From a virus (Duplodnaviria > Heunggongvirae > Uroviricota > Caudoviricetes): 14,413 nucleotides of DNA. Positions within the stretch are counted from its first letter, which is position 1. The number at the start of each line of letters is the position of its first letter. Under the pieces are notes generated by a model, which was not told the DNA's origin, did not search any database, and saw only the letters and a program-made list of their open reading frames with translations. Location: the IMG/VR virus record IMGVR_UViG_2654587996_000008; one strand, given 5' to 3'. Below are positions 1-14,413 of this stretch, piece by piece. Made by a program: the position numbers and the translations under genes.

Positions 1-267
1 TCAGAACTTTTTTCGAATGACATCCTGGAGCATTTCCTTGTCCAGACTGAGGTCTGCCACCAGACGACGGAGCCGCTGATTTTCATCCTCCAGTTGCCGC
101 AGACGGCGCAATTCTGTCACGCCCATCCCGCCAAACTTTTTCTTCCAGTTGTAAAAAGTGGCTTCAGAAATGCCCATCTTTCTGCACACTTCCTCCCCCC
201 GGGTGCCGATTTCAGCCTGTTTCAGCGCAAAAGCGATCTGTTCTTCGGTATAGCGGGTCTTTTTCAT
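1..267 (-). CDS. IS3-family transposase OrfA (HTH ORF, IS407-group-like)
   Basis: 88-aa ORF with stop at 1-3. Translation 'MKKTRYTEEQIAFALKQAEIG...ATFYNWKKKFGG...LRRLRQLEDENQRLRRL' has the HTH plus leucine-zipper pattern of IS3-family OrfA. An A6G slippery heptamer sits at its 3' end; orfB would lie beyond the left edge. Confidence 0.8.
   Translation of the reverse strand: MKKTRYTEEQIAFALKQAEIGTRGEEVCRKMGISEATFYNWKKKFGGMGVTELRRLRQLEDENQRLRRLVADLSLDKEMLQDVIRKKF
7..13 (-). other. Programmed -1 ribosomal frameshift heptamer A-AAA-AAG (IS3-family OrfAB fusion signal)
   Basis: The minus strand reads 'CGAAAAAAGTTCTGA' at nt 15..1, i.e. AAAAAAG immediately before the orfA stop. Confidence 0.6.
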
Positions 268-629: not shown

Positions 630-656
630 ATGAAAATGGCCCGTGTGAGGGGCCAT
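630..656 (-). terminator. Putative intrinsic terminator of the three-gene operon
   Basis: 7-bp GC-rich stem (636-642 'ATGGCCC' pairing 650-656 'GGGCCAT') with a 7-nt loop, followed on the minus strand by 'TTTCATT', directly after the stop at 659-661. Confidence 0.4.
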
Positions 657-658
657 AA

Positions 659-1126
659 TTATTTTACGATTCTGAAAGAAGGAATCTCAAGAAGAGGCAG
701 AAGCAGTGGTTTAATGCCCACGCGAGTAGATAACCCATAAACCTGCTCACGAACATATGGGTATATAATCAATGGAGCGTTAAAATCAGCCCAATGAGGG
801 ATATGCTTAACAGAGAATTCTTCAGTATCTACTGTAAAAACTCCTCCGACTTCAACCCATATAGAGACAGGTTGGTTCTCATACTCTTGGTTGTCAGCTT
901 CAGAATTATCCTCATCTACAGCAAATCTGCCAGCACGAACCCTCATACTTACATGTATAGTAGATGTTGCTTCATCAAAATCTGAATGGCCTGCTTCCAT
1001 AGCGTAGCTACCAGCTTGGTAGTCAGCCGAATGTGCAGTCTTAACGTCATGCACTTCAATACTCAGCTTCAAAACTTGCAACGAACGGAGTTGCACAGCA
1101 TGTGCTCGAAATGACTTATTTGACAT
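659..1126 (-). CDS. SecB-like chaperone
   Basis: 155 aa. C-terminal 'NAPLIIYPYVREQVYGLSTRVGIKPLLLPLL' matches the SecB signature segment (E. coli SecB '...[30 protein letters not shown]...'). Start overlaps the upstream stop as TAATG (translational coupling). Confidence 0.6.
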   Translation of the reverse strand: MSNKSFRAHAVQLRSLQVLKLSIEVHDVKTAHSADYQAGSYAMEAGHSDFDEATSTIHVSMRVRAGRFAVDEDNSEADNQEYENQPVSIWVEVGGVFTVDTEEFSVKHIPHWADFNAPLIIYPYVREQVYGLSTRVGIKPLLLPLLEIPSFRIVK

Positions 1127-1434
1127 TAGGCCGCCAGTGCAAATTCAGGTTCTGCTTCAACAGCTAAGACCGTGTCAGCGTTCAAGGATTTAGCAGCATT
1201 TAGCTTCACAGTAGCAAACAAAGTTACCAGTTCCTCTGTCATGACTTCTGAAAAGTGCAAAGACAAAGACTCCAGAGTATTTACATCAAAATCTTTGAAT
1301 TTTTCGCTTTTTTTCAGAAAAGAGGAAACATCCCCTTCTCTACATTCCCTGGCTTCTTTAAGGAACTCTTCAGGTGTTAAAGACAAGATGTCTTGTAACG
1401 CCGCGTCCAATGCAGCCTTCATTCTACGGTTCAT
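1126..1434 (-). CDS. Small acidic helical protein; putative antitoxin/adaptor of the operon
   Basis: 102 aa with SD 'GAGGGG' 8 nt upstream of the ATG. Starts 12 nt after the upstream gene and overlaps the downstream start. No recognisable DNA-binding motif; the C-terminal tail '...TVLAVEAEPEFALAA' is acidic/hydrophobic. Confidence 0.5.
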   Translation of the reverse strand: MNRRMKAALDAALQDILSLTPEEFLKEARECREGDVSSFLKKSEKFKDFDVNTLESLSLHFSEVMTEELVTLFATVKLNAAKSLNADTVLAVEAEPEFALAA

Positions 1435-1446
1435 AGTGGAACCCCT

Positions 1447-2052
1447 CTAATTTTTAGTTATAGCAAGATAATCCAGATTTCTAACTATCACAGCAAACGG
1501 CGCTCCAACATACCCAGCCAGTTGGTCTGGCATTTTATGTGGTTGCTGGACGGTGGCTAACACTACGCCAACTGATATGCATTTGGATTCTTCAGTTCGA
1601 TTGATGAGCATTTGATGCACTGCACAGATAAGGTCTTCTCTCTCATCAACATTCTGGGCATTTATAGTTGGCCAAAGACCATCAAGCGCTTTTCTTAAAG
1701 TTACTCTAAACTCGGGACTCTCAAGGTTTAAAACCTCTTCACCAGGTGCCTTGACGTACCCCCAAATTACAGCGCAACCTTTGTCAGCTTCGTCTGAATA
1801 TTCACCTCTTTTTTCAGCAGCAACAAACCAACTTTCTGCAAGTTGAGTTGCATATTGGCATCCTTTTTCAGCAGCATGCCAAAGATAAGCTCCCACACCA
1901 CGCCTACCACCGTCTCCAACTCTGAAACCATTCTCCAGAATTGATGCAGCCCTTGAGCAGCAAGTTCCATGGGAGCCATGTGCTTCGAAGAAGGTAGCTT
2001 CAACTGATTCATCATTAGCGGCTTGATCGGAAACTAAACTTAACATATTCAT
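1447..2052 (-). CDS. Putative ADP-ribosyltransferase-fold protein (PARP/diphtheria-toxin-like H-G-S/T motif)
   Basis: 201 aa. 'FFEAHGSHGTCCSRAASILENGFRVGDGGRRGVGAYLWHAAEKGCQYA' resembles the NAD-binding core of H-Y-E clade ARTs (PARP1 '[37 protein letters not shown]', diphtheria toxin 'YHGT'). Candidate catalytic acidic residues lie further downstream. The functional call is inference. Confidence 0.45.
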   Translation of the reverse strand: MNMLSLVSDQAANDESVEATFFEAHGSHGTCCSRAASILENGFRVGDGGRRGVGAYLWHAAEKGCQYATQLAESWFVAAEKRGEYSDEADKGCAVIWGYVKAPGEEVLNLESPEFRVTLRKALDGLWPTINAQNVDEREDLICAVHQMLINRTEESKCISVGVVLATVQQPHKMPDQLAGYVGAPFAVIVRNLDYLAITKN

Positions 2053-2148
2053 TTAGTTACCATTTATCCGTTTCTTAGTGTTCTTAGCCAACTAACTGAA
2101 CCTTCTTCAGTGGACGTTAGTAGACAAACTATAGGACAAGTTTATCCG

Positions 2149-2154
2149 ATTATA
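2149..2154 (-). promoter_or_regulatory. Candidate -10 box (TATAAT on minus strand) for the three-gene operon
   Basis: Plus-strand 'ATTATA' at 2149-2154 gives a perfect minus-strand TATAAT about 95 bp upstream of the start at 2052. No convincing -35 was found. Confidence 0.2.
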
Positions 2155-2348
2155 AAAACAACACAAGCTATCTGATGAATAGGTTGATCCCGTTTTTAAG
2201 TAATCACCTCAGCAAACAACAATTACTTACTGAAGCAACTGTAACTTAGAGCGCGTACGACCAAAAACCCCGCTAGCGGTGCCGATGAGTGACAAGTTTT
2301 GACAGGTGCATCAAACGATCTGCACATGAAATTTTCTAAAGCGGCGCG

Positions 2349-2606
2349 GTTGACACTTTCCGGCTTAAGACCTTAATAAATCTTAATATCGCAGGTTGAC
2401 ACACTTGACACTTTTTCGCGAAAAACCTTAGCATTTCTAAGCATGGCAACTTGACATTTTTCGCGGTTTTTTCGGCTTTTTGACGTGGTAAATCTGGCAC
2501 AAACCCAGTAATTGCGGGGCTTACAGCGAGGTTGACACTTTTTCGCGTTCAGAGTGTAAAGTGTCAACCTGGCAAGCTTGCCAGCTGCTCAACTTGACAC
2601 TTTTTG
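2349..2606 (+). repeat. Array of direct repeats, consensus about TTGACACTTTTTCGCG, plus one inverted copy and a 16-bp palindrome
   Basis: Copies at 2349-2360, 2395-2402, 2405-2420, 2451-2466, 2480-2485 (degenerate), 2531-2547 and 2594-2606; inverted 'GTGTCAAC' at 2561-2568; perfect palindrome 'CTGGCAAGCTTGCCAG' at 2569-2584. Spacing is irregular. Confidence 0.7.
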
Positions 2607-2609
2607 ATG

Positions 2610-3137
2610 TCATTGATGGTCTGATTTTTCCCACTCAGCCAGGGCGTTTAACCCGGCTTCACTCCATGATTCCGGTTCATCGGGATAATCACCTGCAACA
2701 TAGCAGAGTTCGCAACGCAGCATACGAATTGCCAGCCTGGCATTACCTCGCAAATTGTATTTTTCAAAGTAATGCTGCCCTTCATCATCCTCAAGGCAGA
2801 TAGCACCATCATCAAGAAAGTGCACTTCCCAGCCTAATTCCCCGGCTGCATACAGCACACGCTGCTGTATGCCCTCGTCCGTTACTGGCGCAGGAATTTT
2901 ACCGTCTCTGGCCTTAACTGCTTTCCAGAACTCGCCCCATGTCATTTCCAGCGTTCTTTCTGGCCACATTTCAGAAATGGTGTCTTTCCCCTGTGCTGGT
3001 GGGCTGTTCCGCTGCTCTGTCGCTTCCACATCAATTTTTTTACCGGACATGACCACTTCGCCTTTCTCGAGCCAGTCGTAAACTGTCTGGCGGCTTACGC
3101 CTTTGTATTTGGCGTATTCGGCTTTACTCATCAACAT
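2610..3137 (-). CDS. Nu1-like winged-HTH DNA-binding protein (possible terminase-small-subunit-like / packaging-redirection protein)
   Basis: About 175 aa from the ATG at 3137 (SD 'GAGGTG' 7 nt upstream; the ORF track's earlier ATG at 3155 lacks an SD). N-terminus 'MSKAEYAKYKGVSRQTVYDWLEKGEVV' resembles lambda Nu1 'KKQLADIFGASIRTIQNWQEQGMPV'. The repeat array lies immediately 3'. Confidence 0.5.
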   Translation of the reverse strand: MLMSKAEYAKYKGVSRQTVYDWLEKGEVVMSGKKIDVEATEQRNSPPAQGKDTISEMWPERTLEMTWGEFWKAVKARDGKIPAPVTDEGIQQRVLYAAGELGWEVHFLDDGAICLEDDEGQHYFEKYNLRGNARLAIRMLRCELCYVAGDYPDEPESWSEAGLNALAEWEKSDHQ

Positions 3138-3236
3138 GTAGCTCACCTCATGCATATACGATAAAAAATAATTTCATGCGGAAAGGGAATGCGTTGTGGG
3201 TATGGAGGAAAGGGGCAATAACCGCCCCTTACTGAT

Positions 3237-5616: not shown

Positions 5617-5904
5617 TTACTGACTACAATTGTTCTTTTTTTGGTATTTCCTGAATGCCTCACCATTGGGCTGATGTAATCCCATCCCGACATGTGCCCG
5701 GCAGATGGTTTTGCGCATCTCCCCGAAATTATCCTGCCTTGCTGGTGGGCGTGCTGCCTTGTGGATACATTCCGCGCGACGTTTTGCCGCCTGTTCCCGT
5801 GCCTTGTCATCATTCGCCAGCATGATGACCTCAGCCCACCGCGCCGCCGCTCTGCGGTACAGGCCACGCGCTTCCAGTGCTTCCGCTTTACTGTCCTGAA
5901 TCAT
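5617..5904 (-). CDS. PerC-family transcriptional regulator (Pch-like)
   Basis: 95 aa. 'KAEALEARGLYRRAAARWAEV' matches the conserved PerC/Pch N-terminal motif as I recall it. SD 'AGGAGG' upstream; ATGA overlap with the upstream stop. Confidence 0.65.
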   Translation of the reverse strand: MIQDSKAEALEARGLYRRAAARWAEVIMLANDDKAREQAAKRRAECIHKAARPPARQDNFGEMRKTICRAHVGMGLHQPNGEAFRKYQKKNNCSQ

Positions 5905-6479
5905 GCACCTGTTACCTCCTTTGCTGCCCGGCGCTGACGTTTGCGCTTCTCATTCAGCGCCACCAGCCGCGTTTCTGCCTCCTGCTGTTCCTGTGGTGTC
6001 ACTTCCCCACATGGCTGGCCTTTCAGGTCGTAGCGTACCCCACCAGCCATTAAGGCGCGGTAATAGCGCGGACACTGCGCATAAGATGCCAGCGTCGCAC
6101 GTAATGCCCCTGGCCCGAATGCCAGCCCCCTGACGGCGAGGTTCTGCATCAGGTCGTCGAATATCCCCACCTTAAGCGGCTTCGGTGCTTCCCGGCTGAA
6201 TAAGTCAGGCCACAACTCAGTAAGGCGGTTAACGCGCCTGCGGTTTTTTCGCTGCCGTTTGGTCATATGCCGCCACGGTGTCGCCCCTGTGGGCTTTTGC
6301 TGCGCTTTCTGGTTACCGGGCATCACTTTATGTGCCGATGTGGTTTTATCCTGCTCCTGCGTCGCCTGCGTCGTTTTCTGCGGCGTGCCGTAAATGCCTT
6401 TCGGTTTTCTGTTAATGGTCAGCTTAGTCATGCTTTGCCCCATCGTTTTTACTGGTTGTTTCATATCCGGTACTTTCAT
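5901..6479 (-). CDS. ProQ/FinO-domain RNA-binding protein
   Basis: 192 aa. 'KPLKVGIFDDL...LRATLASYAQCPRYYRALMAGGVRYDLKGQPCGEVT' parallels E. coli ProQ 'RPLKIGIFQDL...[36 protein letters not shown]', preceded by a basic Lys/Arg/Gln-rich N-terminus. The exact start is uncertain among several in-frame ATGs. Confidence 0.65.
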   Translation of the reverse strand: MKVPDMKQPVKTMGQSMTKLTINRKPKGIYGTPQKTTQATQEQDKTTSAHKVMPGNQKAQQKPTGATPWRHMTKRQRKNRRRVNRLTELWPDLFSREAPKPLKVGIFDDLMQNLAVRGLAFGPGALRATLASYAQCPRYYRALMAGGVRYDLKGQPCGEVTPQEQQEAETRLVALNEKRKRQRRAAKEVTGA

Positions 6480-6787: not shown

Positions 6788-8536
6788 TTATAAAAATTCC
6801 TCGGTTCTCTCCGTTTGTATAACGTTGGTTTGTATTCGTCCTTTAAAACCTCTTGTCAGGTATTCAGCCCCATATTCTCTTGCTGCTGACTTCATGGCCT
6901 TACCAAAATCACCGACACTTAATATTTCTTCTTCCCCCATATACTCCATAAAGGCGAGATATAGTCTGTACAGGCTTGTACGCGGATTAAGATCAGTTAA
7001 TCTCTTACCGCCTCCCATCATCATCCCATGCGGTTCATCAAGAAATGCAAGCGCCGCACATAACCCAATGACAGGATCAGTTTCCTGTTTTATTTTCAGA
7101 GCTTCGGCACCGTCGCGCTGCTCCAACAATAATTCCCGTGCTTTTTCTGGATCGGAAAAGTTAGCCAGTAATCGACGAATAATGACAGGTATTTCCGCCG
7201 CTATCTTTTGCGGTAACTCTTTATCCTTTTCGGTCTCCCTTACAATATTATCGAACCGAAAAATTACACGTCGACGCGCAACGCCTCCGGCCCGTTCGGT
7301 GAATGTCATCGGCACGTTATTTGTTGCCAGCACGACGGACCTGATAATTGTTGTGAAACGCTTTTCATATTTCGGGTTAATTTCAACTGGATCTCCACCC
7401 GTTATTTTTTTGATGCCGGATCCTTCACCTGTATATTTCGGCTGGTCTGCCAGGACAATAAGACGACTTCCGACAACCTGCGCACGCCCGCCAGCATCAT
7501 CAAGTGATGTCATTTCAGCGCTTACCGTGTTCTGTTTCCCTGCCAGAAGGGTGGCTATGTGCGTGATTGTGCTCTTGCCGCTCCCACCTTCCCCTGTGGC
7601 CTCAATAAACATCTGCCAGTCGTACCGGTTCGCCATAATCATGTACAGCGCGGCGCATATACGCATCATCTTTCGCGGGTCTTTTCCTGCGGCGTGATCA
7701 AGCCATTTATGAAAGTTTGGCGCGTTGTCGCGGATGTTCTCCCCTGGTACTGGTGGCGTGTACTCAATGCCGTTATGCGTGGTGATCCAGTTATCCGGCG
7801 AGTGCGGGGAAAATTCGCCAGTTTTCATGTCAAGCACGCCATTAGAGAACGGCAATAAATCACCTGACGGCTCCCCCATTGGCCTGGCCATAACTTTTAA
7901 AGCATCCACTGTATTACTTATTGCTCTCCGACTAAATGATGTTCCGTTTTCTTCGTAAATAGCCACCATTTCACGACTAAGATCCAGTGTGCTTACCGGA
8001 ACCCAAAAATCATCGCGCCAGACGTGAACAACCTCACTCTCCTGATTCATTGCTACATCCTGAAATCGTTCAGCTAAAAGTTTTGCCCTTTGGCTGTCCG
8101 CCATTCTGGAAAGAGATATTTTGTGTTTTTTCTCGGTCCTTCCTGACAGAATTTCTCCGCGCTCAGCCTGTCCGCGGATCCGTTGCAAGTAGTCGCGCCA
8201 GTTCTCCGGCTCCCGGTCGGTGATACCTTTGTATAATTTCGCCTCCTGTACGCCAGCCAGCGCCAGCTTTTCAGCGATAGCATTGATCTGGATTGGTTCG
8301 ATCTCTCCCGCGAGATAGACACGCGCAAAGCGGCGTTTCTCGTCAATAATGCGGATATTCGCCAGGTCTGCCAGTTGCTTTGGCCCCAGGTAAACAGGTG
8401 GTACGTTATCGCCGTGTTTTCGTCCTTCGCTTTCAATCCAGTGTTGAGCATGGGAGTAAGCGTCCGCCCCGGCAAAAATGATTACCTCTGTGAATTTATC
8501 CTTCGGCTGATATTTTAAATTCGGTGCGTTTTTCAC
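6788..8536 (-). CDS. P4-family primase/helicase (D5-like, Walker A P-loop)
   Basis: 582 aa with Walker A 'GEGGSGKST' and a phage/plasmid primase C-terminal-type region. GTG start at 8536 with SD 'GGAGG' 7 nt upstream; GTGA overlap with the upstream ORF. Confidence 0.85.
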   Translation of the reverse strand: MKNAPNLKYQPKDKFTEVIIFAGADAYSHAQHWIESEGRKHGDNVPPVYLGPKQLADLANIRIIDEKRRFARVYLAGEIEPIQINAIAEKLALAGVQEAKLYKGITDREPENWRDYLQRIRGQAERGEILSGRTEKKHKISLSRMADSQRAKLLAERFQDVAMNQESEVVHVWRDDFWVPVSTLDLSREMVAIYEENGTSFSRRAISNTVDALKVMARPMGEPSGDLLPFSNGVLDMKTGEFSPHSPDNWITTHNGIEYTPPVPGENIRDNAPNFHKWLDHAAGKDPRKMMRICAALYMIMANRYDWQMFIEATGEGGSGKSTITHIATLLAGKQNTVSAEMTSLDDAGGRAQVVGSRLIVLADQPKYTGEGSGIKKITGGDPVEINPKYEKRFTTIIRSVVLATNNVPMTFTERAGGVARRRVIFRFDNIVRETEKDKELPQKIAAEIPVIIRRLLANFSDPEKARELLLEQRDGAEALKIKQETDPVIGLCAALAFLDEPHGMMMGGGKRLTDLNPRTSLYRLYLAFMEYMGEEEILSVGDFGKAMKSAAREYGAEYLTRGFKGRIQTNVIQTERTEEFL

Positions 8537-8823
8537 TTCTTACCTCCCGCAACCAACATTGCCCGGATTTTTTTAATATTCTTGGCTGCACGTCTCGCCA
8601 CCGCCTGTTGTTTGTTTTCAACCAGAATAAAATCACGCTCAAACTGACGACGCGGCATTACGCAGTCATATTCGTAAGCCTCACGGCGGTAGGTGATATT
8701 GCCTGGCGTAACGTGACGAATAACCACTCGTCCCCCACGTCTGGTGTCGCGGTAAATATCTCCGTGTCTGATTTCAGGCCGAGAGAGACCGCTGGCAGTA
8801 AAGCCAGAATTTTTCTTTTTCAT
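8533..8823 (-). CDS. Hypothetical small basic protein (96 aa)
   Basis: SD 'AGGAAA' upstream of the ATG at 8823; coupled to the primase start. Confidence 0.5.
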   Translation of the reverse strand: MKKKNSGFTASGLSRPEIRHGDIYRDTRRGGRVVIRHVTPGNITYRREAYEYDCVMPRRQFERDFILVENKQQAVARRAAKNIKKIRAMLVAGGKK

Positions 8824-9612: not shown

Positions 9613-9829
9613 GGTGCACCTCCTGCACATCAGCCATGATAATTTTTCCGGCCTTATCCAGTGCCTGATCGGCTTTTAGCTGCACAAATGCTAAATAATG
9701 GGAGATGCATTCTGATTCTCTGACTGCGTGTTTATGCGCCACACCAGCGATAGCTGAAATCTCAATAAGTGAATCCATCAGCGTTTTGATAGCGTCTACC
9801 GCTGCATCAGGCCATGTTGCATTACACAT
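9605..9829 (-). CDS. Hypothetical protein (74 aa)
   Basis: SD 'AGGAGG' upstream of the ATG at 9829; ATGTGTAA overlap with the upstream ORF. Confidence 0.45.
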   Translation of the reverse strand: MCNATWPDAAVDAIKTLMDSLIEISAIAGVAHKHAVRESECISHYLAFVQLKADQALDKAGKIIMADVQEVHHA

Positions 9830-10025
9830 GCTCCACCTCCTGGCGAATACGGGCAGCGAATACCATCACGCAGCCATCAGGGGATTGCTGGCGTGCTTCC
9901 TGTTCGCTGGTGGCCTCGATGTGAATTACGCGCGGTTGTGCTGTGCTCAGGGCGATAAAACGCCAGATGTATTTATTCAGGTTGTGCGAGTCCCGCCCTT
10001 GCGGGTGTGTGGTATGATTTCTCAT
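9822..10025 (-). CDS. Hypothetical protein (67 aa), first gene of the replication operon
   Basis: Internal ATG of the long stop-free frame, at 10025, with SD 'GAGGT' 5 nt upstream. Translation 'MRNHTTHPQGRDSHNLNKYIWRF...'. Confidence 0.45.
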   Translation of the reverse strand: MRNHTTHPQGRDSHNLNKYIWRFIALSTAQPRVIHIEATSEQEARQQSPDGCVMVFAARIRQEVEHV

Positions 10026-10122
10026 AGCTACCTCGATACTGTTGCTATCGTTGGTGGTTAGAAGCCCGGTTAGTGTTAGCGCACTGCCGGGTTTCGTCGT
10101 TTCTGCACCTTGCATCAACAAG

Positions 10123-10174
10123 GTGTTGAACACCAATTTAAACCTAGGTGTTAAACACGTCAAGTGTTGAACAC
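10123..10174. promoter_or_regulatory. Three 11-bp palindromic operator-like sites GTGTT(G/A)AACAC in a divergent control region
   Basis: Sites at 10123-10133, 10148-10158 and 10164-10174. The third overlaps a plus-strand -35-like 'TTGAAC' (10167-10172), with -10-like 'CATACT' (10190-10195) upstream of the RHH gene. Confidence 0.55.
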
Positions 10175-10224
10175 TTGTTTTTTTTCCTGCATACTGCATT
10201 TGTTTTTTGTGAGGGGGACACAAC

Positions 10225-10404
10225 ATGGCGACAAAAGCAGTAAACGCAAAATCACAAACAGTTGCGGCAAGGGTTCCGCATGAAGTTATGAACAATGTTG
10301 AGGCGGTAAAAATGCCTGGTGAAAGTACAGGGCAGTTTGTAACAGCAGCATTAAAGCGAGAAGTTGAGTACCGCCAGCGGCGCAAGGCCAAAGAACAGGA
10401 GTAA
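10225..10404 (+). CDS. Small ribbon-helix-helix-like regulator (59 aa), not in the ORF track
   Basis: ATG at 10225 with strong SD 'GAGGGGG'. Translation 'MATKAVNAKSQTVAARVPHEVMNNVEAVKMPGESTGQFVTAALKREVEYRQRRKAKEQE' fits a beta-strand plus two helices. The only clearly plus-strand gene, divergent from the replication operon. Confidence 0.5.
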   Translation: MATKAVNAKSQTVAARVPHEVMNNVEAVKMPGESTGQFVTAALKREVEYRQRRKAKEQE

Positions 10405-10661
10405 CCATCACCAGCGCCGTGGTGTGAGGAACGACGGTGCATCGTTTTACAGGGCAGCGCCATGACCAACAAAGAATCAACCAATACACCATCACCGGCC
10501 CGGAAAAGACAGCGCAGAAAGATAGCGTACGAGTATGAGTCAGACAGATTCGCGCCCTGTGCGTTTATCCTTGAGAATTTCCTTAAAGAGTACAGGCGCA
10601 CAAAAATGGGGTCGCATACCTGGAAAACATCGCGACATGGCAATGTTAAAGAGCCGGAATA

Positions 10662-11084
10662 GCCCACCAGCAAGCCAGCACACTGATCACATTGCCCACC
10701 AGCCGCAAATCTGGCATTGTTGGCGATGTGTTCAAGTGTGTAGCTTTCCCACTGGTGGCCCTCTGCGGTCGCCTTTGTTTTATCCAGAACGAAATCAGAC
10801 ATCAGATTAATCAGCACCTGGCGACCTGACAAAAACGCATCAGTCGCGCCACCAGCAAAATTTTTTGCTTTCCGGACAGCGTGACCAACGACATTTTGCA
10901 GCAAAATATTCTGCATTTCTGGCGTGCTGTAGTAACGGTGATCAGCGCCTTCACTCTGTGCGACCACAACGCTATAATCTGCCTCGTAGACAGTAAGCAA
11001 TATGGCGCAGTAGGCTATTCGTTCACAAAGGCGCTCCGGCAACGGGGCGCTTTCTCTTTTTGTAACGGTCAGAGCGTTACACAT
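10662..11084 (-). CDS. Hypothetical protein, 5' portion only; 3' end undefined (possible disrupted gene)
   Basis: ATG at 11084 overlaps the antirepressor stop (ATGTGTAA). The first ~140 residues look protein-like, but the frame then runs stop-free through regulatory DNA to 9822, so the true end cannot be set. The end coordinate is arbitrary. Confidence 0.25.
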
Positions 11085-11925
11085 GGCTGTTTTCCTCCAT
11101 GCGACGGGCTAACCAACGCTGCGAAAGACGAATTAATTCAGCTTTCCGCTGGTGGTAGCCCTGGCCTAACTCAATCAGCGTGATATTGCTCTGCTCAAGG
11201 TAAGAAAGGTGCTCAAGCTGCAACGTGCTCATGTGGTCGCGTGGTTCGCCTGTGATGCCGTTCGCCTGCGCCCACTGTTTTGCAGTCATGCCACCCAGCA
11301 CGATACGCGCCAGCATATTGGCTTCCGTGGTGTAGTGGTGCTGGAACGTGTTTTTATCCAGTTCAGCCCGGTACGCCTCCAGCGCGGCACACATTGGCTT
11401 AAAGTAGCTGGCAACTGTGATACGGGCTTTCATTTCCCGGCGTAACGCTGCGGAACGCACTGGCGCTACCTTGTGTAGCTCCTCCTCGCATTTGATGAAG
11501 TACTGACGAACGGCGCGGCCCTGTTCGGTGCGTTCGACCATCGCCAGTTCTTTCGCCATGTTCGTGGAGATCAAATAGTCTTCACTGCGACGATCACCGC
11601 CGCGCTTTGTTGTCCAATCAGAATCAAACTGTTCAATATTTACACTTTGGTTCCCCCATTTCGGGGAATCAAAGTACAAATTTTCTACAACTTCAAAATC
11701 CACACCCTTTTTAAATCCGTACTCATCAATGCGTCCTTTAATCCAGGTTGTGAAATCACGACCTACCCCGAGCGCCTTATGCGACGCTCTGGCGCTAACA
11801 ATATTGGTTTCACGCCCGCCAATAACGCCGGAAATAACCGGGATAATTTCGCCAAAATTTTGCAGATTCTGGTTTTCAGGCCGAACGAAGCCCTGCCCCT
11901 GTACGGGCGTTTTTCGCAGTTTCAT
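11077..11925 (-). CDS. Phage antirepressor-like protein (AntA-type N-terminal domain plus KilA-C-type C-terminal domain)
   Basis: 282 aa with SD 'AGGAG' upstream. 'SARASHKALGVGRDFTTWIKGRI' and 'MAKELAMVERTEQGRAVRQYFIKCEEEL' match antirepressor domain signatures as I recall them. Confidence 0.6.
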   Translation of the reverse strand: MKLRKTPVQGQGFVRPENQNLQNFGEIIPVISGVIGGRETNIVSARASHKALGVGRDFTTWIKGRIDEYGFKKGVDFEVVENLYFDSPKWGNQSVNIEQFDSDWTTKRGGDRRSEDYLISTNMAKELAMVERTEQGRAVRQYFIKCEEELHKVAPVRSAALRREMKARITVASYFKPMCAALEAYRAELDKNTFQHHYTTEANMLARIVLGGMTAKQWAQANGITGEPRDHMSTLQLEHLSYLEQSNITLIELGQGYHQRKAELIRLSQRWLARRMEENSHV

Positions 11926-12002: not shown

Positions 12003-12200
12003 TCAGGTAGCTGTTCCGCGTGATTCCGCAATACGCTGATTAATCCACTCGTCAATTTCACTCTCAACGAAAGCAATCGCTCGCGAGCCAATTTTTACAG
12101 GTTTAGGAAAACGCCCTTGGGCAATGAGTTTATAGATCCATGCCCTTCCATACCCTGTACGGCGCATGGTTTCTGGCATACGAATTAAAGATTGTGACAT
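12003..12200 (-). CDS. alpA: AlpA-family transcriptional regulator / excisionase-like protein
   Basis: About 65 aa from the ATG at 12200 (SD 'GGGAGA' upstream). 'IRMPETMRRTGYGRAWIYKLIAQGRFPKPVKIGSRAIAFVESEIDEWINQR' is the AlpA-type HTH signature. The ORF-track N-terminal extension is rejected. Confidence 0.75.
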   Translation of the reverse strand: MSQSLIRMPETMRRTGYGRAWIYKLIAQGRFPKPVKIGSRAIAFVESEIDEWINQRIAESRGTAT

Positions 12201-12266
12201 GATAATCGTCTCCCGTTGTTTATTGATGCCTACGGGAGACATTGAAGCAGGTAAGACATTGGATAT

Positions 12267-12303
12267 CACCGCAATTGCGGTGAATGATACCGCAATTGCG
12301 GTA
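12267..12303. promoter_or_regulatory. Tandem 16-bp perfect palindromes CACCGCAATTGCGGTG and TACCGCAATTGCGGTA (operator-like)
   Basis: At 12267-12282 and 12288-12303, centres 21 bp apart, between the 251-aa gene stop (12315) and the alpA start (12200). Confidence 0.55.
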
Positions 12304-12314
12304 TAGGACTACAA

Positions 12315-13070
12315 CTACGATTTAATTGATTTATTGGCTTCAGCAAACTTTGCTTCCAGCGTTCTTGAACTCATCCCCGGCTTACCTTCAAAATGCCCCA
12401 ATAAATTACTAATAATAGAGCTTTGATTTTCGAATACAGATTGCTTAATACCAGCAGGTGAACGCCCTAACATTAGAAAAAGCAACCCTCCAATAATGTT
12501 TAAATATGTTGTTTCAGAACGTTGGTCAATGTTTTGCACGGAGTTATCAACCATTCGTCGTAGTGAATCACGTTCCCCTTGTAATTCGGAAATTTCATTT
12601 TTCTGCTGTTGAAAAGTCTTCATAGCATTATCTAAGCGAATATTAAGACGTTTGTTTTCAGCCTGAAGAGTTTGATATGCCTCGACTGTAATTCCAGCAT
12701 GTAACTGCTGCTCAACAGCATCAAAAAGGAAAGCTGGTTTTTGGTTGGGATAGTTTTTTGACATCCATGATTTCAGATCGGAATGACGGACGGTTAAACG
12801 GTGCTTAGCAACCTGTTCTCCAGGTTGAACAGTTTTACCATCACGACCATAAGGAATTTCACAATTATTGATTGCATCTAAAATTTTCTCAGCATTAACA
12901 CGCAAGCAAGGCCATTGAGGGAACATTCCAACGCTAGGTAAAACTCCATCTCCCACTCGCTCCAATATTAAAACTTCATGAGCAATTAAATTACACCAAC
13001 GTAGCGCCGCTTCAATTGGAGTGTAATATGCCTTTTCAAGAGAACTACAGCTTTTTGAATTGTAAGTCAC
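12315..13070 (-). CDS. Uncharacterised protein (251 aa) with central coiled-coil-like segment
   Basis: Apparent GTG start at 13070 with SD 'GAGGT' upstream. Heptad-like region 'QTLQAENKRLNIRLDNAMKTFQQQKNEISELQGERDSLRRM'. No family recognised. Confidence 0.5.
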   Translation of the reverse strand: MTYNSKSCSSLEKAYYTPIEAALRWCNLIAHEVLILERVGDGVLPSVGMFPQWPCLRVNAEKILDAINNCEIPYGRDGKTVQPGEQVAKHRLTVRHSDLKSWMSKNYPNQKPAFLFDAVEQQLHAGITVEAYQTLQAENKRLNIRLDNAMKTFQQQKNEISELQGERDSLRRMVDNSVQNIDQRSETTYLNIIGGLLFLMLGRSPAGIKQSVFENQSSIISNLLGHFEGKPGMSSRTLEAKFAEANKSIKS

Positions 13071-13198
13071 TCTGTGCTACCTCGCACCCTCTGTAAAAGT
13101 GGCTGTGCCAGCCCGCAGAGGTGTACGGGTTTTCAGGAGCGACCCTAGACACAGCCTTTTCTTAATCGCTCAAAGTCTACTACTGTATACTCAACCAG

Positions 13199-14413
13199 TC
13201 ACCCGCATTTTCCGAACTCACCATGCACCACATTTCCGCCATGCTCGAGCGAATCCATATAGTCGGCATACCACTGGAGCATCTCCCGGCGACCATCCAG
13301 ATATTGCGCATGGTTGTATGTGCCACGAATTGAGTTTTTATCGACGTGTGCAAGCTGTGTCTCTATCCACGCGGTGTTATAGCCCTGCTCATGCAAAATG
13401 GTGCTCATGGTGTGCCGGAATCCATGACCAGTAACCTTTCCGTTATAGCCGATGCGTTTAAATACTTGGTTTATGCTAGCCTCGCTCATTGTTTTCCTTG
13501 GATCATTACGGCCGGGAAACATAAGCGGATAATTGCCAGTTAATTCTTTAATCTGCCCAATAAGCGAAAGAGCCTGCTCAGACAAAGGCACCACATGAGG
13601 GCGACGCATTTTCATCCGTGAAGCAGGTATCTCCCAGATAGCCTTGTTGAGATCGATTTCATCCCATAATGCACCGCGCAGTTCGCCAGTCCGCAAACCG
13701 GTGATAATCAGTAGACGAGCCGCCATAACAACCAATGCACTTCCTGAGTAACTGGACAATGCCTTGAAAAAATCAGGTAATTCTTTGGCTGTGAGGAAAG
13801 GATAATGACTAGATTCATGACCTTGCATCGCGCTGGTGAGATCCGGTGCAGGGTTATACTCAGCACGTCCAGTGACAATTGCATAGCGGAAAACTTCCCC
13901 GCATCGCTGCCTCACTTTTTTGGCTTTTTCGGTAGCACCGCGCCCCTCGATGCGCCGCAGCACATTCAGCAGTTCAAGTGGTTTGATTTCGGCGATTGGT
14001 TTTTTGCCAATGTAAGGGAACACATCTTTGTTGAAGGCTTCGAGGATGTCTGAAGCATAACCAGCAGACCATTTTTTTAATTTGCTGCTGTGCCACTCAA
14101 TGGCAATATCTTTGAAGGTGTTGTTTAACTGCGTTTCCCGGGCAATCTTTTCCTCTCGTTTCGCTTCCATCGGATCGATACCCCCAGCGATACTCCTTTT
14201 AGCTTCTTCACGTTTTGCACGAGCATCAGCCAAGGTAACTTCAGGATACACACCTAGTGCTAACAGCTTCTCTTTACCAGCTACACGATACTTGAAGCGC
14301 CAATATTTTCCTCCACTAGGTTTTACCAAGAGATACAGACCACCACCATCAGCCAGCTTGTAAGCCTTCTCTTTTGGCTTGGCAGTGTCTATTTGACGGG
14401 CATTGAGTTTCAC
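13199..14413 (-). CDS. int: P4-type tyrosine integrase (site-specific recombinase)
   Basis: 404 aa. N-terminus 'KLNARQIDTAKPKEKAYKLADGGGLYLLVKPSGGKYWRFKYR' is typical of P4/CP4-57-type integrases; C-terminus has 'HGFRHT' and 'RGTYNHA' (catalytic Tyr region). Apparent GTG start sits exactly at the window edge, so the N-terminus may be slightly truncated. Confidence 0.9.
   Translation of the reverse strand: MKLNARQIDTAKPKEKAYKLADGGGLYLLVKPSGGKYWRFKYRVAGKEKLLALGVYPEVTLADARAKREEAKRSIAGGIDPMEAKREEKIARETQLNNTFKDIAIEWHSSKLKKWSAGYASDILEAFNKDVFPYIGKKPIAEIKPLELLNVLRRIEGRGATEKAKKVRQRCGEVFRYAIVTGRAEYNPAPDLTSAMQGHESSHYPFLTAKELPDFFKALSSYSGSALVVMAARLLIITGLRTGELRGALWDEIDLNKAIWEIPASRMKMRRPHVVPLSEQALSLIGQIKELTGNYPLMFPGRNDPRKTMSEASINQVFKRIGYNGKVTGHGFRHTMSTILHEQGYNTAWIETQLAHVDKNSIRGTYNHAQYLDGRREMLQWYADYMDSLEHGGNVVHGEFGKCG

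What the first reader, a model, noticed from the sequence alone, without database searches (positions are those of the whole stretch)
659..1434. SecB-like chaperone coupled to a small acidic partner with a hydrophobic/acidic C-terminal tail
In TAC systems the antitoxin carries a C-terminal chaperone-addiction extension that makes it dependent on its SecB-like chaperone. Gene B ends in '...AKSLNADTVLAVEAEPEFALAA' and is coupled via TAATG to the SecB-like gene, matching that logic even though gene B has no obvious HTH.
Basis: partly seen in the sequence, partly recalled or inferred. Interest (0 to 1): 0.55.

Follow-up and report, generated by a model that had tools for sequence, protein, structure and literature searches.

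The report
Divergent CmdTAC-like toxin-antitoxin-chaperone module
The two genes are very probably the unstable antitoxin and its SecB-like guardian chaperone in a three-gene cassette whose upstream toxin is an ADP-ribosyltransferase; this is a distant, unannotated relative of the published CmdTAC anti-phage system, not a new kind of system.

Summary
On the minus strand, gene B (1126-1434, 102 aa, pI 4.7, ends ...EPEFALAA) overlaps gene C (659-1126, 155 aa) through TAATG. C is a SecB-like protein. Its family profile's only match among solved structures is Rv1957, the chaperone of the M. tuberculosis toxin-antitoxin-chaperone (TAC) system. It also matches the PADLOC model for CmdC.

The gene upstream (A, 1447-2052) models as an ADP-ribosyltransferase fold with invariant His28 and Tyr56. 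Profile-profile comparison shows it is a remote homologue of CmdT.

The order A-B-C recurs in about 30 fetched loci, in P4-like satellites, P2-like prophages and small plasmids. In 22 of 23 loci from the chaperone search, B ends in an aromatic-x-L-A-A type tail. This is the same ClpXP degron shown experimentally for CmdA.

B has no detectable sequence similarity to CmdA. PADLOC's CmdT and CmdA models do not match A or B. The cassette is therefore a divergent subfamily of a known kind.

The TAC interpretation is supported by comparison only. B-C binding, toxicity and the phage trigger are inferred. The "tail" is better read as a ClpX degron plus an upstream chaperone-binding stretch. Interest is moderate to low.

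The parts
2128..2156 (-). Promoter-like site (TTTATA-17-TATAGT) about 75 nt upstream of gene A
   Evidence: Consensus scan, 9 of 12 matches. The stretch is conserved in the close relatives L037, L040 and L027. The number of such sites in the region is not above the shuffle expectation, so this is tentative.
2050..2061 (-). Invariant leader GGTAACTAAATG ending in the toxin start codon
   Evidence: Identical, apart from one A/G position, in 9 cassettes whose toxins are only about 53-60% identical. Its function is unknown; it may be a translation-initiation or regulatory element.
1447..2052 (-). Gene A: 201-aa predicted ADP-ribosyltransferase toxin (CmdT-like). Codons: His28 = 1969-1971, Tyr56 = 1885-1887, Glu154 = 1591-1593
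1126..1434 (-). Gene B: 102-aa acidic predicted antitoxin (CmdA-like architecture)
   Evidence: Always lies between the toxin and the chaperone. The N-terminal motif ALxxALxxLxxMSxEEL is conserved. AF2 predicts helices at 3-17, 21-32 and 36-42, and residues 78-102 have pLDDT below 50; the model as a whole is low confidence.
1129..1143 (-). Codons for the C-terminal FALAA of B: predicted ssrA-like ClpX degron
   Evidence: An aromatic-x-[LMI]-A-[AV] tail is present in 22 of 23 B proteins, including authentic CmdA (ELDLAA). The CmdA LAA/AA tail is a functional ClpXP degron (PMC11618068; bioRxiv 2024.02.24.581848).
1124..1128 (-). TAATG stop/start overlap coupling B to C
   Evidence: Read directly from the sequence. 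The B-C gap is -4 to +16 nt in all 22 loci.
659..1126 (-). Gene C: 155-aa SecB-like TAC chaperone (CmdC / SecB-TA-like)
   Evidence: hhalign against CmdC, probability 92.8%; Rv1957, E=3.7e-8.
636..656 (-). Terminator-like GC-rich hairpin directly after the stop codon of C
   Evidence: Scan result: 7-bp stem with 5 GC pairs and a weak T tract.

Best explanation
Genes B and C are the antitoxin and the chaperone of a tripartite toxin-antitoxin-chaperone (TAC) module, A-B-C. It belongs to a divergent branch of the CmdTAC (PD-T4-9) kind and is carried as cargo at the distal end of a P4/PICI-like phage satellite.

Proposed mechanism:
1. A is an H-Y-type ADP-ribosyltransferase toxin.
2. B binds and neutralises A through its conserved N-terminal helical part, and may help A to fold.
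3. B's C-terminal half is extended. It contains a chaperone-binding (ChAD-like) stretch and ends in an ssrA-like FALAA degron.
4. A tetramer of the SecB-like C holds this tail, which keeps B soluble and hidden from ClpXP.
5. When a phage protein made in bulk (a capsid or tail protein in the known cases) competes for C, B is released and degraded by ClpXP.
6. A is freed and ADP-ribosylates its target (mRNA in CmdT; unknown here). This stops translation and aborts the infection.

Shown here: gene order and coupling, SecB-TA homology of C, ART fold and motifs of A, remote homology of A to CmdT, conservation of the B tail, and location in mobile-element cargo sites.

Inferred by analogy: B-C and A-B binding, ClpXP dependence, toxicity, the trigger and the target.
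For: - Operon anatomy.
- C: PADLOC CmdC model E=2e-9; hhalign of the C family against authentic CmdC, probability 92.8%; sole PDB hit is Rv1957.
- A: ART fold; invariant HG[T] and G-x-Y-[FL]-W motifs.
- A and CmdT: profile-profile E=4.4e-5 (strict) and 1.7e-9 (with the bridging toxins of L008 and L010). His28 aligns with the CmdT His, and Tyr56 aligns with the catalytic Tyr41 of CmdT. The reversed control gives E=0.92.
- Bridge: the L008 toxin matches both PADLOC PD-T4-9_A (4.1e-10) and the A-superfamily HMM (2.3e-10).
- B: the conserved aromatic-x-LAA tail is also present in CmdA. The predicted architecture matches the description of CmdA.
- Context: P4-like satellites (window, L001, L026), P2-like prophages between gpS and gpV (L022, L023), and small plasmids beside other TA or Abi genes (L018-L020, L033-L035).
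- Published mechanism of CmdTAC: PMC11618068 and bioRxiv 10.1101/2024.02.24.581848.
Against:
- B shows no significant similarity to CmdA (BLASTP finds nothing; hhalign E=0.07-0.12).
- PADLOC's CmdT and CmdA models do not match A or B at E<=1, or any of 100 A-superfamily members at E<=0.001.
- The AF2 model of B is low confidence (pLDDT 57).
- The third catalytic residue of A is unresolved. E154 is the best-conserved acid, but it sits in a predicted helix.
Confidence: 0.78

Rival explanations
1. The molecular machine is the same (a TAC), but its biological role is addiction and stabilisation of the mobile element (post-segregational killing) rather than phage defence.
For: Relatives sit on small plasmids of 5-20 kb next to RelE/ParE and BrnA modules. 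TAC systems were first described outside any phage context (PMC8165232).
Against: The window copy and several relatives occupy cargo positions of P4-like satellites and P2-like prophages. The two characterised relatives of this kind defend against phages. The two roles are not mutually exclusive.
Confidence: 0.1
2. B is not an antitoxin but a folding helper or adaptor for A, and C chaperones A or B for another purpose. A might not be toxic to the host at all, for example an ART that modifies a helper-phage or host factor for the satellite's benefit.
For: CmdA itself is needed for CmdT to fold and accumulate. B has no recognisable antitoxin family. Phages are known to encode non-lethal ARTs (general knowledge: T4 Alt, ModA and ModB).
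Against: A conserved degron on B only makes sense if removing B has a consequence. Copies occur in which the toxin gene is truncated but B and C are intact (L026). This is the decay pattern expected for a toxin-antitoxin pair. The cassette also occurs outside phages and satellites, on plasmids and in chromosomes.
Confidence: 0.08
3. C is an export chaperone (a SecB paralogue) that delivers A as a secreted ADP-ribosylating effector, and B acts as an immunity protein.
For: PGAP names C-family proteins 'protein-export chaperone SecB'. Many ART toxins are secreted (general knowledge).
Against: SecB equivalog scores are 17-21 bits against cut-offs of 103-181. The only PDB match is the TAC chaperone Rv1957, not the E. 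coli or Haemophilus SecB. No secretion-system genes are seen in any context. A's N-terminus is polar and disordered, with no hydrophobic signal-like segment.
Confidence: 0.03

Closest known systems
CmdTAC / PD-T4-9 of E. coli ECOR22 and O112ab:H26 (Vassallo et al. 2022, 2024; Mets et al. 2024)
   Same: - Gene order is toxin, antitoxin, chaperone with tight coupling.
- The toxin is an ART with aligned His and catalytic Tyr.
- The antitoxin is small and acidic, has no HTH and has N-terminal helices. Authentic CmdA and window B both end in LAA.
- The chaperone is SecB-like and homologous.
- The cassette is carried in prophage or satellite cargo sites.
   Different: - The toxin is only remotely related. 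BLASTP finds nothing and the PADLOC CmdT models do not match.
- A has a PARP-like 'GSHGT...GRRGxGAYLW' signature, where CmdT has 'IGFHNC...QGYYFW'.
- B (102 aa) has no detectable similarity to CmdA (77 aa).
- C is 155 aa with an acidic insert, against 129 aa for CmdC.
- The cassette is absent from 5,426 complete E. coli genomes at the DNA level.
- The target and the trigger are unknown.
M. tuberculosis HigB1-HigA1-Rv1957 (the founding TAC; structure 5MTW)
   Same: The chaperone is the closest solved relative of C (E=3.7e-8). It shares the logic of a C-terminal chaperone-addiction region that also carries a ClpX degron.
   Different: The toxin is a HigB RNase rather than an ART. HigA1 has an HTH DNA-binding domain and ends in VA. 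It has no phage-defence context.
E. coli NT1F31 HigBAC (triggered by the lambda gpV tail protein)
   Same: The SecB-like sensor is titrated by a phage structural protein, and aromatic residues of the ChAD slot into chaperone pockets.
   Different: The toxin is an RNase. The ChAD is about 97 aa long. The antitoxin ends in LP, and inactivation of the antitoxin does not depend on ClpXP.
ssrA (tmRNA) degradation tag AANDENYALAA (from my own knowledge; the Ala-Ala-COO- element is cited)
   Same: Window B ends in FALAA. Tails of relatives match up to 9 of 11 positions of the E. coli tag, for example AANDERFALAA and AVNDNSYALAA.
   Different: The tail is genetically encoded, not added by trans-translation. 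The window copy keeps only the ALAA part plus the aromatic residue (4 of 11 identical).

Membership tests
TAC (toxin-antitoxin-chaperone) systems | Three co-oriented, tightly coupled genes in the order toxin, antitoxin, SecB-like chaperone | tested here: met
   A-B gap is 12 nt and B-C share a TAATG overlap. The arrangement is conserved wherever enough sequence is held in the ~30 fetched loci.
TAC (toxin-antitoxin-chaperone) systems | Chaperone belongs to the SecB-TA lineage rather than to housekeeping SecB | tested here: met
   The only PDB hit is Rv1957 (E=3.7e-8). SecB equivalog HMMs score far below their cut-offs. The Pfam SecB score is 24.7 bits, just under the gathering score of 26.
TAC (toxin-antitoxin-chaperone) systems | Antitoxin carries a C-terminal chaperone-addiction (ChAD) extension that binds the chaperone | not testable with these tools
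   Indirect evidence only. The C-terminal part has low pLDDT, there is a hydrophobic patch at residues 69-78, and the tail is conserved.
TAC (toxin-antitoxin-chaperone) systems | Antitoxin is protease-labile unless the chaperone is present (ClpXP degron) | tested here: inconclusive
   The sequence motif is present: FALAA-COOH, conserved in 22 of 23 loci. Degradation itself was not tested.
TAC (toxin-antitoxin-chaperone) systems | Toxin+antitoxin is toxic and is rescued by the chaperone | not testable with these tools
   Requires expression assays.
CmdTAC / PD-T4-9 | Toxin matches the CmdT family model | tested here: not met
   PADLOC PD-T4-9_A gives no hit at E<=1 for A and no hit for 100 superfamily members. 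The positive control, authentic CmdT, scores 4.4e-97 and 1.4e-20.
CmdTAC / PD-T4-9 | Toxin is a homologue of CmdT with the ART fold and catalytic His/Tyr | tested here: met
CmdTAC / PD-T4-9 | Antitoxin matches the CmdA family | tested here: not met
   PADLOC PD-T4-9_B gives no hit (control 3e-38). BLASTP finds nothing. hhalign E=0.07-0.12. Only the architecture and the LAA tail are shared. The CmdTAC authors themselves note the high variability of CmdA.
CmdTAC / PD-T4-9 | Chaperone matches the CmdC family | tested here: met
   PADLOC PD-T4-9_C E=2e-9. BLASTP against CmdC: 36% identity over 36 aa, E=4e-6. hhalign probability 92.8%.
CmdTAC / PD-T4-9 | Toxin ADP-ribosylates N6 of adenine in GA dinucleotides of mRNA; trigger is a phage capsid protein | not testable with these tools
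   Biochemistry and infection assays are needed.
Housekeeping SecB export chaperone | Meets the SecB equivalog score and lies in the yibN-grxC-secB-gpsA context | tested here: not met
   Scores are 16.7-20.8 bits against cut-offs of 103-181. The context is a satellite cargo region.

The most novel reading that the evidence does not exclude
This PARP-like 'HGT...GxGxYFW' clade of SecB-guarded ARTs may differ functionally from CmdT in two ways.
1. It may have a different substrate, such as a protein, a tRNA, DNA or NAD+ itself, rather than mRNA GA sites.
2. Its antitoxins may carry a near-complete genetically encoded copy of the tmRNA tag (AANDExYALAA in relatives). Antitoxin turnover would then use the whole ssrA pathway (SspB plus ClpXP), with the chaperone acting as a tag-masking device.

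The window copy retains only the FALAA end of that tag.
Probability: 0.3. Interest if true: 0.5.

Novelty: new member of a known kind. Interest (0 to 1): 0.35.

Why it matters
It extends the CmdTAC type of anti-phage system (chaperone as phage sensor, ClpXP-labile antitoxin, ART effector) to a divergent clade. That clade has at least 411 representative sequences at 50% identity. The window cassette and its sampled relatives are missed by PADLOC's toxin and antitoxin models, so such cassettes would go uncounted in defence-system censuses that depend on them.

The clade gives natural sequence variation for asking two questions: what determines which phage protein a SecB-like sensor recognises, and whether ART toxins of this kind all target mRNA. 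The conserved ssrA-like tails give a simple sequence signature for finding chaperone-addicted antitoxins that have no family model.

Tried and rejected
- DNA searches of the cassette found nothing: megablast against E. coli genomes, plasmids and phages, and distant blastn against E. coli genomes.
- Direct BLASTP of A against CmdT and of B against CmdA found nothing. Single-sequence hhalign of A against CmdT was weak (E=0.0028, probability 11%). It became convincing only after I built a CmdT-clade profile.
- The authentic CmdTAC sequences were not directly available. I recovered them by searching a 45-nt primer from Table S8 of Vassallo 2022 against E. coli genomes.
- The search for related loci with CmdT in viral contigs returned only relatives that were 94-100% identical, which was no use for a profile. 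The 100-sequence alignment A4 was too diverse for that tool.
- The AF2 model of B came out at low confidence, so I did not use it for a fold search.
- I considered position 184, just before the last beta-hairpin, as the third catalytic residue and rejected it because it is variable across the superfamily.
- A profile search of A against PDB sequences gave only a non-significant PARP3 hit (E about 1).
- The HTH ORF at 2610-3155 and the repeat field at 2340-2610 are not part of the module, because they are absent from the cassette's other contexts.

Full report
**What is in the sequence.**
The window's minus strand carries three consecutive ORFs:
- A: 1447-2052, 201 aa.
- B: 1126-1434, 102 aa.
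- C: 659-1126, 155 aa.

A and B are separated by 12 nt that contain an AGGGG ribosome-binding site. B's TAA stop overlaps C's ATG (TAATG, 1124-1128). A GC-rich hairpin follows C at 636-656, and a weak sigma-70-like site lies at 2128-2156. B ends ...AVEAEPEFALAA and is acidic (pI 4.68, net charge -7).

**Gene C.**
- Pfam SecB matches at E=2.5e-5, with 24.7 bits against a gathering score of 26.
- NCBIfam SecB equivalogs score only 17-21 bits against cut-offs of 103-181. C is therefore not a housekeeping SecB.
- PADLOC's PD-T4-9_C model, which is CmdC, matches at E=2e-9.
- A 25-sequence family profile finds exactly one solved structure: Rv1957, the SecB-like chaperone of the M. tuberculosis TAC system (5MTW). 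The match has E=3.7e-8 and runs nearly full length.
- The same profile aligns to authentic CmdC with 92.8% hhalign probability.

**Gene A.**
- A has no Pfam, NCBIfam or PADLOC match.
- Its close family is small: 12 clusters from Klebsiella, Citrobacter and Pectobacterium, all annotated as hypothetical.
- A profile search of 1.84 billion representative proteins finds a superfamily of 411 at E<=1e-3.
- Across 100 superfamily members, His28, Thr30 and Tyr56 are invariant. They sit in a PARP-like 'G-[ST]-H-G-T ... G-x-G-x-Y-F-W' signature. Glu154 is conserved in 93%.

**Link to CmdTAC.**
PD-T4-9 was renamed CmdTAC. In that system:
- CmdA is an antitoxin with two N-terminal helices and an unstructured C-terminal part ending in LAA.
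- CmdA is degraded by ClpXP unless the SecB-like CmdC protects it.
- The T4 capsid protein Gp23 titrates CmdC (PMC11618068; bioRxiv 2024.02.24.581848).

I recovered the authentic operon by searching a primer from Vassallo 2022 against E. coli genomes. The resulting locus, L021, lies in a P2-like prophage and encodes CmdT (192 aa), CmdA (77 aa, ending ELDLAA) and CmdC (129 aa).

As a positive control, these three proteins hit the PADLOC models at 4e-97, 3e-38 and 7e-61. Window A and B hit none.

Pairwise BLASTP of A against CmdT finds nothing. Profile-profile comparison does find the relationship:
- The A superfamily against a strict CmdT clade (ECOR22-type plus Acinetobacter and Psychrobacter plasmid homologues) gives E=4.4e-5, probability 69%, over 132 aligned columns.
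- With the two Syntrophaceae/Smithella toxins (L008, L010) added, it gives E=1.7e-9 and probability 96%.
- A reversed-sequence control gives E=0.92.

The alignment places His28 on the CmdT His, and Tyr56 on the Tyr of 'GYYFW'. That Tyr is the experimentally essential Tyr41 in the authors' numbering.

The L008 toxin is a true bridge. It matches PADLOC PD-T4-9_A at 4.1e-10 and the A-superfamily HMM at 2.3e-10. Its partner chaperone is 37% identical to window C.

**Gene B.**
- B has only three close homologue clusters.
- It shows no significant similarity to CmdA. This fits the CmdTAC authors' remark that CmdA is highly variable and often unannotated.
- I extracted the middle gene from 22 loci found through the chaperone. 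These loci come from Enterobacterales, Massilia, Burkholderiales, Polaromonas, Acinetobacter, Thiodictyon, Beggiatoa/Thiomargarita relatives and Syntrophaceae.
- Despite low overall identity, the middle-gene proteins share an N-terminal 'ALxxALxxLxxMSxEEL' helix region. They also share a C-terminal [acidic]-[acidic]-x-[F/Y/H]-x-[L/M/I]-A-[A/V]-COOH tail.
- Authentic CmdA ends SDDTELDLAA.
- Several relatives nearly reproduce the E. coli tmRNA tag AANDENYALAA, which I quote from memory. Examples are AANDERFALAA (9 of 11 identical), AVNDNSYALAA (8 of 11) and ASNDEYYSLAA (8 of 11). The window copy keeps only the aromatic residue plus ALAA.
- In the close enterobacterial group, residues 1-65 and the last five are conserved, while residues 66-95 vary.
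- AF2 on the shallow alignment is low confidence (pLDDT 57). It predicts helices at 3-17, 21-32 and 36-42, and gives residues 78-102 a pLDDT below 50.
- A hydrophobic patch, LVTLFATVKL at residues 69-78, is the best candidate for the aggregation-prone, chaperone-bound core.

**Context.**
The window is IMG/VR contig UViG_3300011840_000039. It is a P4/PICI-like integrative satellite with these features:
- integrase: 13199-14413
- int-alpA RNA: 13087-13155
- AlpA: 12003-12269
- AntA-type antirepressor: 11077-11925
- DUF4222: 8533-8823
- D5_N/DUF5906 primase: 6788-8536
- ProQ/FinO protein: 5901-6479

The A-B-C cassette sits at the distal cargo end, next to an IS3-family OrfA (1-267).

The same cassette occurs in other settings:
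- behind the primase of other satellites (L001, L026);
- between gpS and gpV of P2-like prophages (L022, L023);
- beside umuDC in Klebsiella (L003-L005);
- on small plasmids next to other TA, Abi or restriction genes (L018-L020, L033-L035).

In toxin-based searches, every locus with enough sequence also has B ending in [F/Y]ALAA, followed by C.

Two decaying copies exist: a truncated toxin with intact B and C in Pectobacterium (L026), and a toxin-antitoxin fusion remnant in Thiomargarita (L014). This fits toxin-antitoxin evolution.

**Interpretation.**
The most economical reading is a CmdTAC-type TAC module: A is an ART toxin, B is the chaperone-addicted and ClpXP-labile antitoxin, and C is the SecB-like guardian and probable phage sensor.

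The terminal FALAA is best explained as the ClpX degron, and the chaperone-binding stretch lies upstream of it. In the M. tuberculosis system both elements lie in the same region but use different residues.

Not shown here: any physical interaction, toxicity, the protease dependence, the trigger, and the target of A.

RES/MbcT-type NAD+ phosphorylases score as high as PARPs in the fold search, so NAD+ depletion is not excluded. The HG[ST]/Y signature favours the H-Y-E transferase class.

**Novelty.**
All three components and their logic are already known from CmdTAC and from TACs in general. What is new is that this clade is sequence-divergent enough to escape the PADLOC toxin and antitoxin models. 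It is also absent from 5,426 complete E. coli genomes at the DNA level. I file it as a new member (a divergent subfamily) of a known kind, of moderate to low interest. The ssrA-tag-like tails of the wider family are a useful by-product.

Noticed in passing
window 2340-2610 (both orientations): About 7-8 copies of TTGACAC(T)TTT(T), which reads AAAGTGTCAA(C) on the other strand. They fill the 557-nt gap between the TAC operon and the HTH ORF at 2610-3155, and some form inverted pairs. They look like iterons or operators of the satellite and are not part of the TAC cassette elsewhere.
   Followed up: partly
window 2050-2061 (minus strand), and L003, L022, L023, L027, L037, L040, L041, L042: The 12 nt GGTAACT(A/G)AATG ending in the toxin start codon are invariant across cassettes whose toxins are only about 53-60% identical. 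An (A/C)ACTT box about 85 nt upstream is also conserved. In some loci this creates a mini-ORF, MVTK*, that overlaps the toxin ATG. It may be a translational control element.
   Followed up: partly
B-protein C-termini in L007, L012, L019, L020, L025: The antitoxin tails of distant relatives reproduce almost the whole tmRNA/ssrA tag, including the part that binds SspB in E. coli. Examples are AANDERFALAA, AVNDNSYALAA, ASNDEYYSLAA and GANDEQYVMAA. The two CmdTAC papers I read mention only LAA or Ala-Ala.
   Followed up: partly
window 13087-13155 (-): Rfam int-alpA RNA (RF02996, 49.8 bits against a gathering score of 35.8) lies between the integrase gene (13199-14413) and the upstream ORF at 12315-13070. 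This is typical of P4/CP4-57-like islands.
   Followed up: no
window 5901-6479 (-): The satellite encodes a ProQ/FinO-domain RNA-binding protein (PF04352, E=1e-23) with a basic N-terminal extension.
   Followed up: no
window 1-267 (-): An IS3-family transposase OrfA (HTH_Tnp_1, E=6e-25) abuts the cassette at the contig end. The island end may be disrupted or may have been mobilised by the IS.
   Followed up: no
window 9822-11084 (-): A 420-aa ORF with odd, low-complexity-like composition and no obvious start context. It is probably not a real gene, and the region between 9630 and 11077 has no convincing coding assignment.
   Followed up: no
L026 3102-3578; L014 2765-2980: Decaying cassettes. 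The Pectobacterium copy has a truncated toxin (158 aa) with an intact antitoxin and chaperone. A Thiomargarita copy has a toxin-C-terminus/antitoxin-tail fusion remnant.
   Followed up: partly
L006 (NZ_JBEOWA010000102.1, 1,033 bp): A 1-kb contig filed under Streptomyces sp. carries a chaperone gene 94% identical to the window's enterobacterial-type C. This is probably assembly contamination.
   Followed up: no
L037, L038, L039 (IMG/VR proviruses): Three predicted proviruses end exactly at the stop codon of B, which cuts off the chaperone gene. This looks like an artefact of gene-boundary provirus trimming. It would make the cassette appear to be a two-gene system.
   Followed up: no
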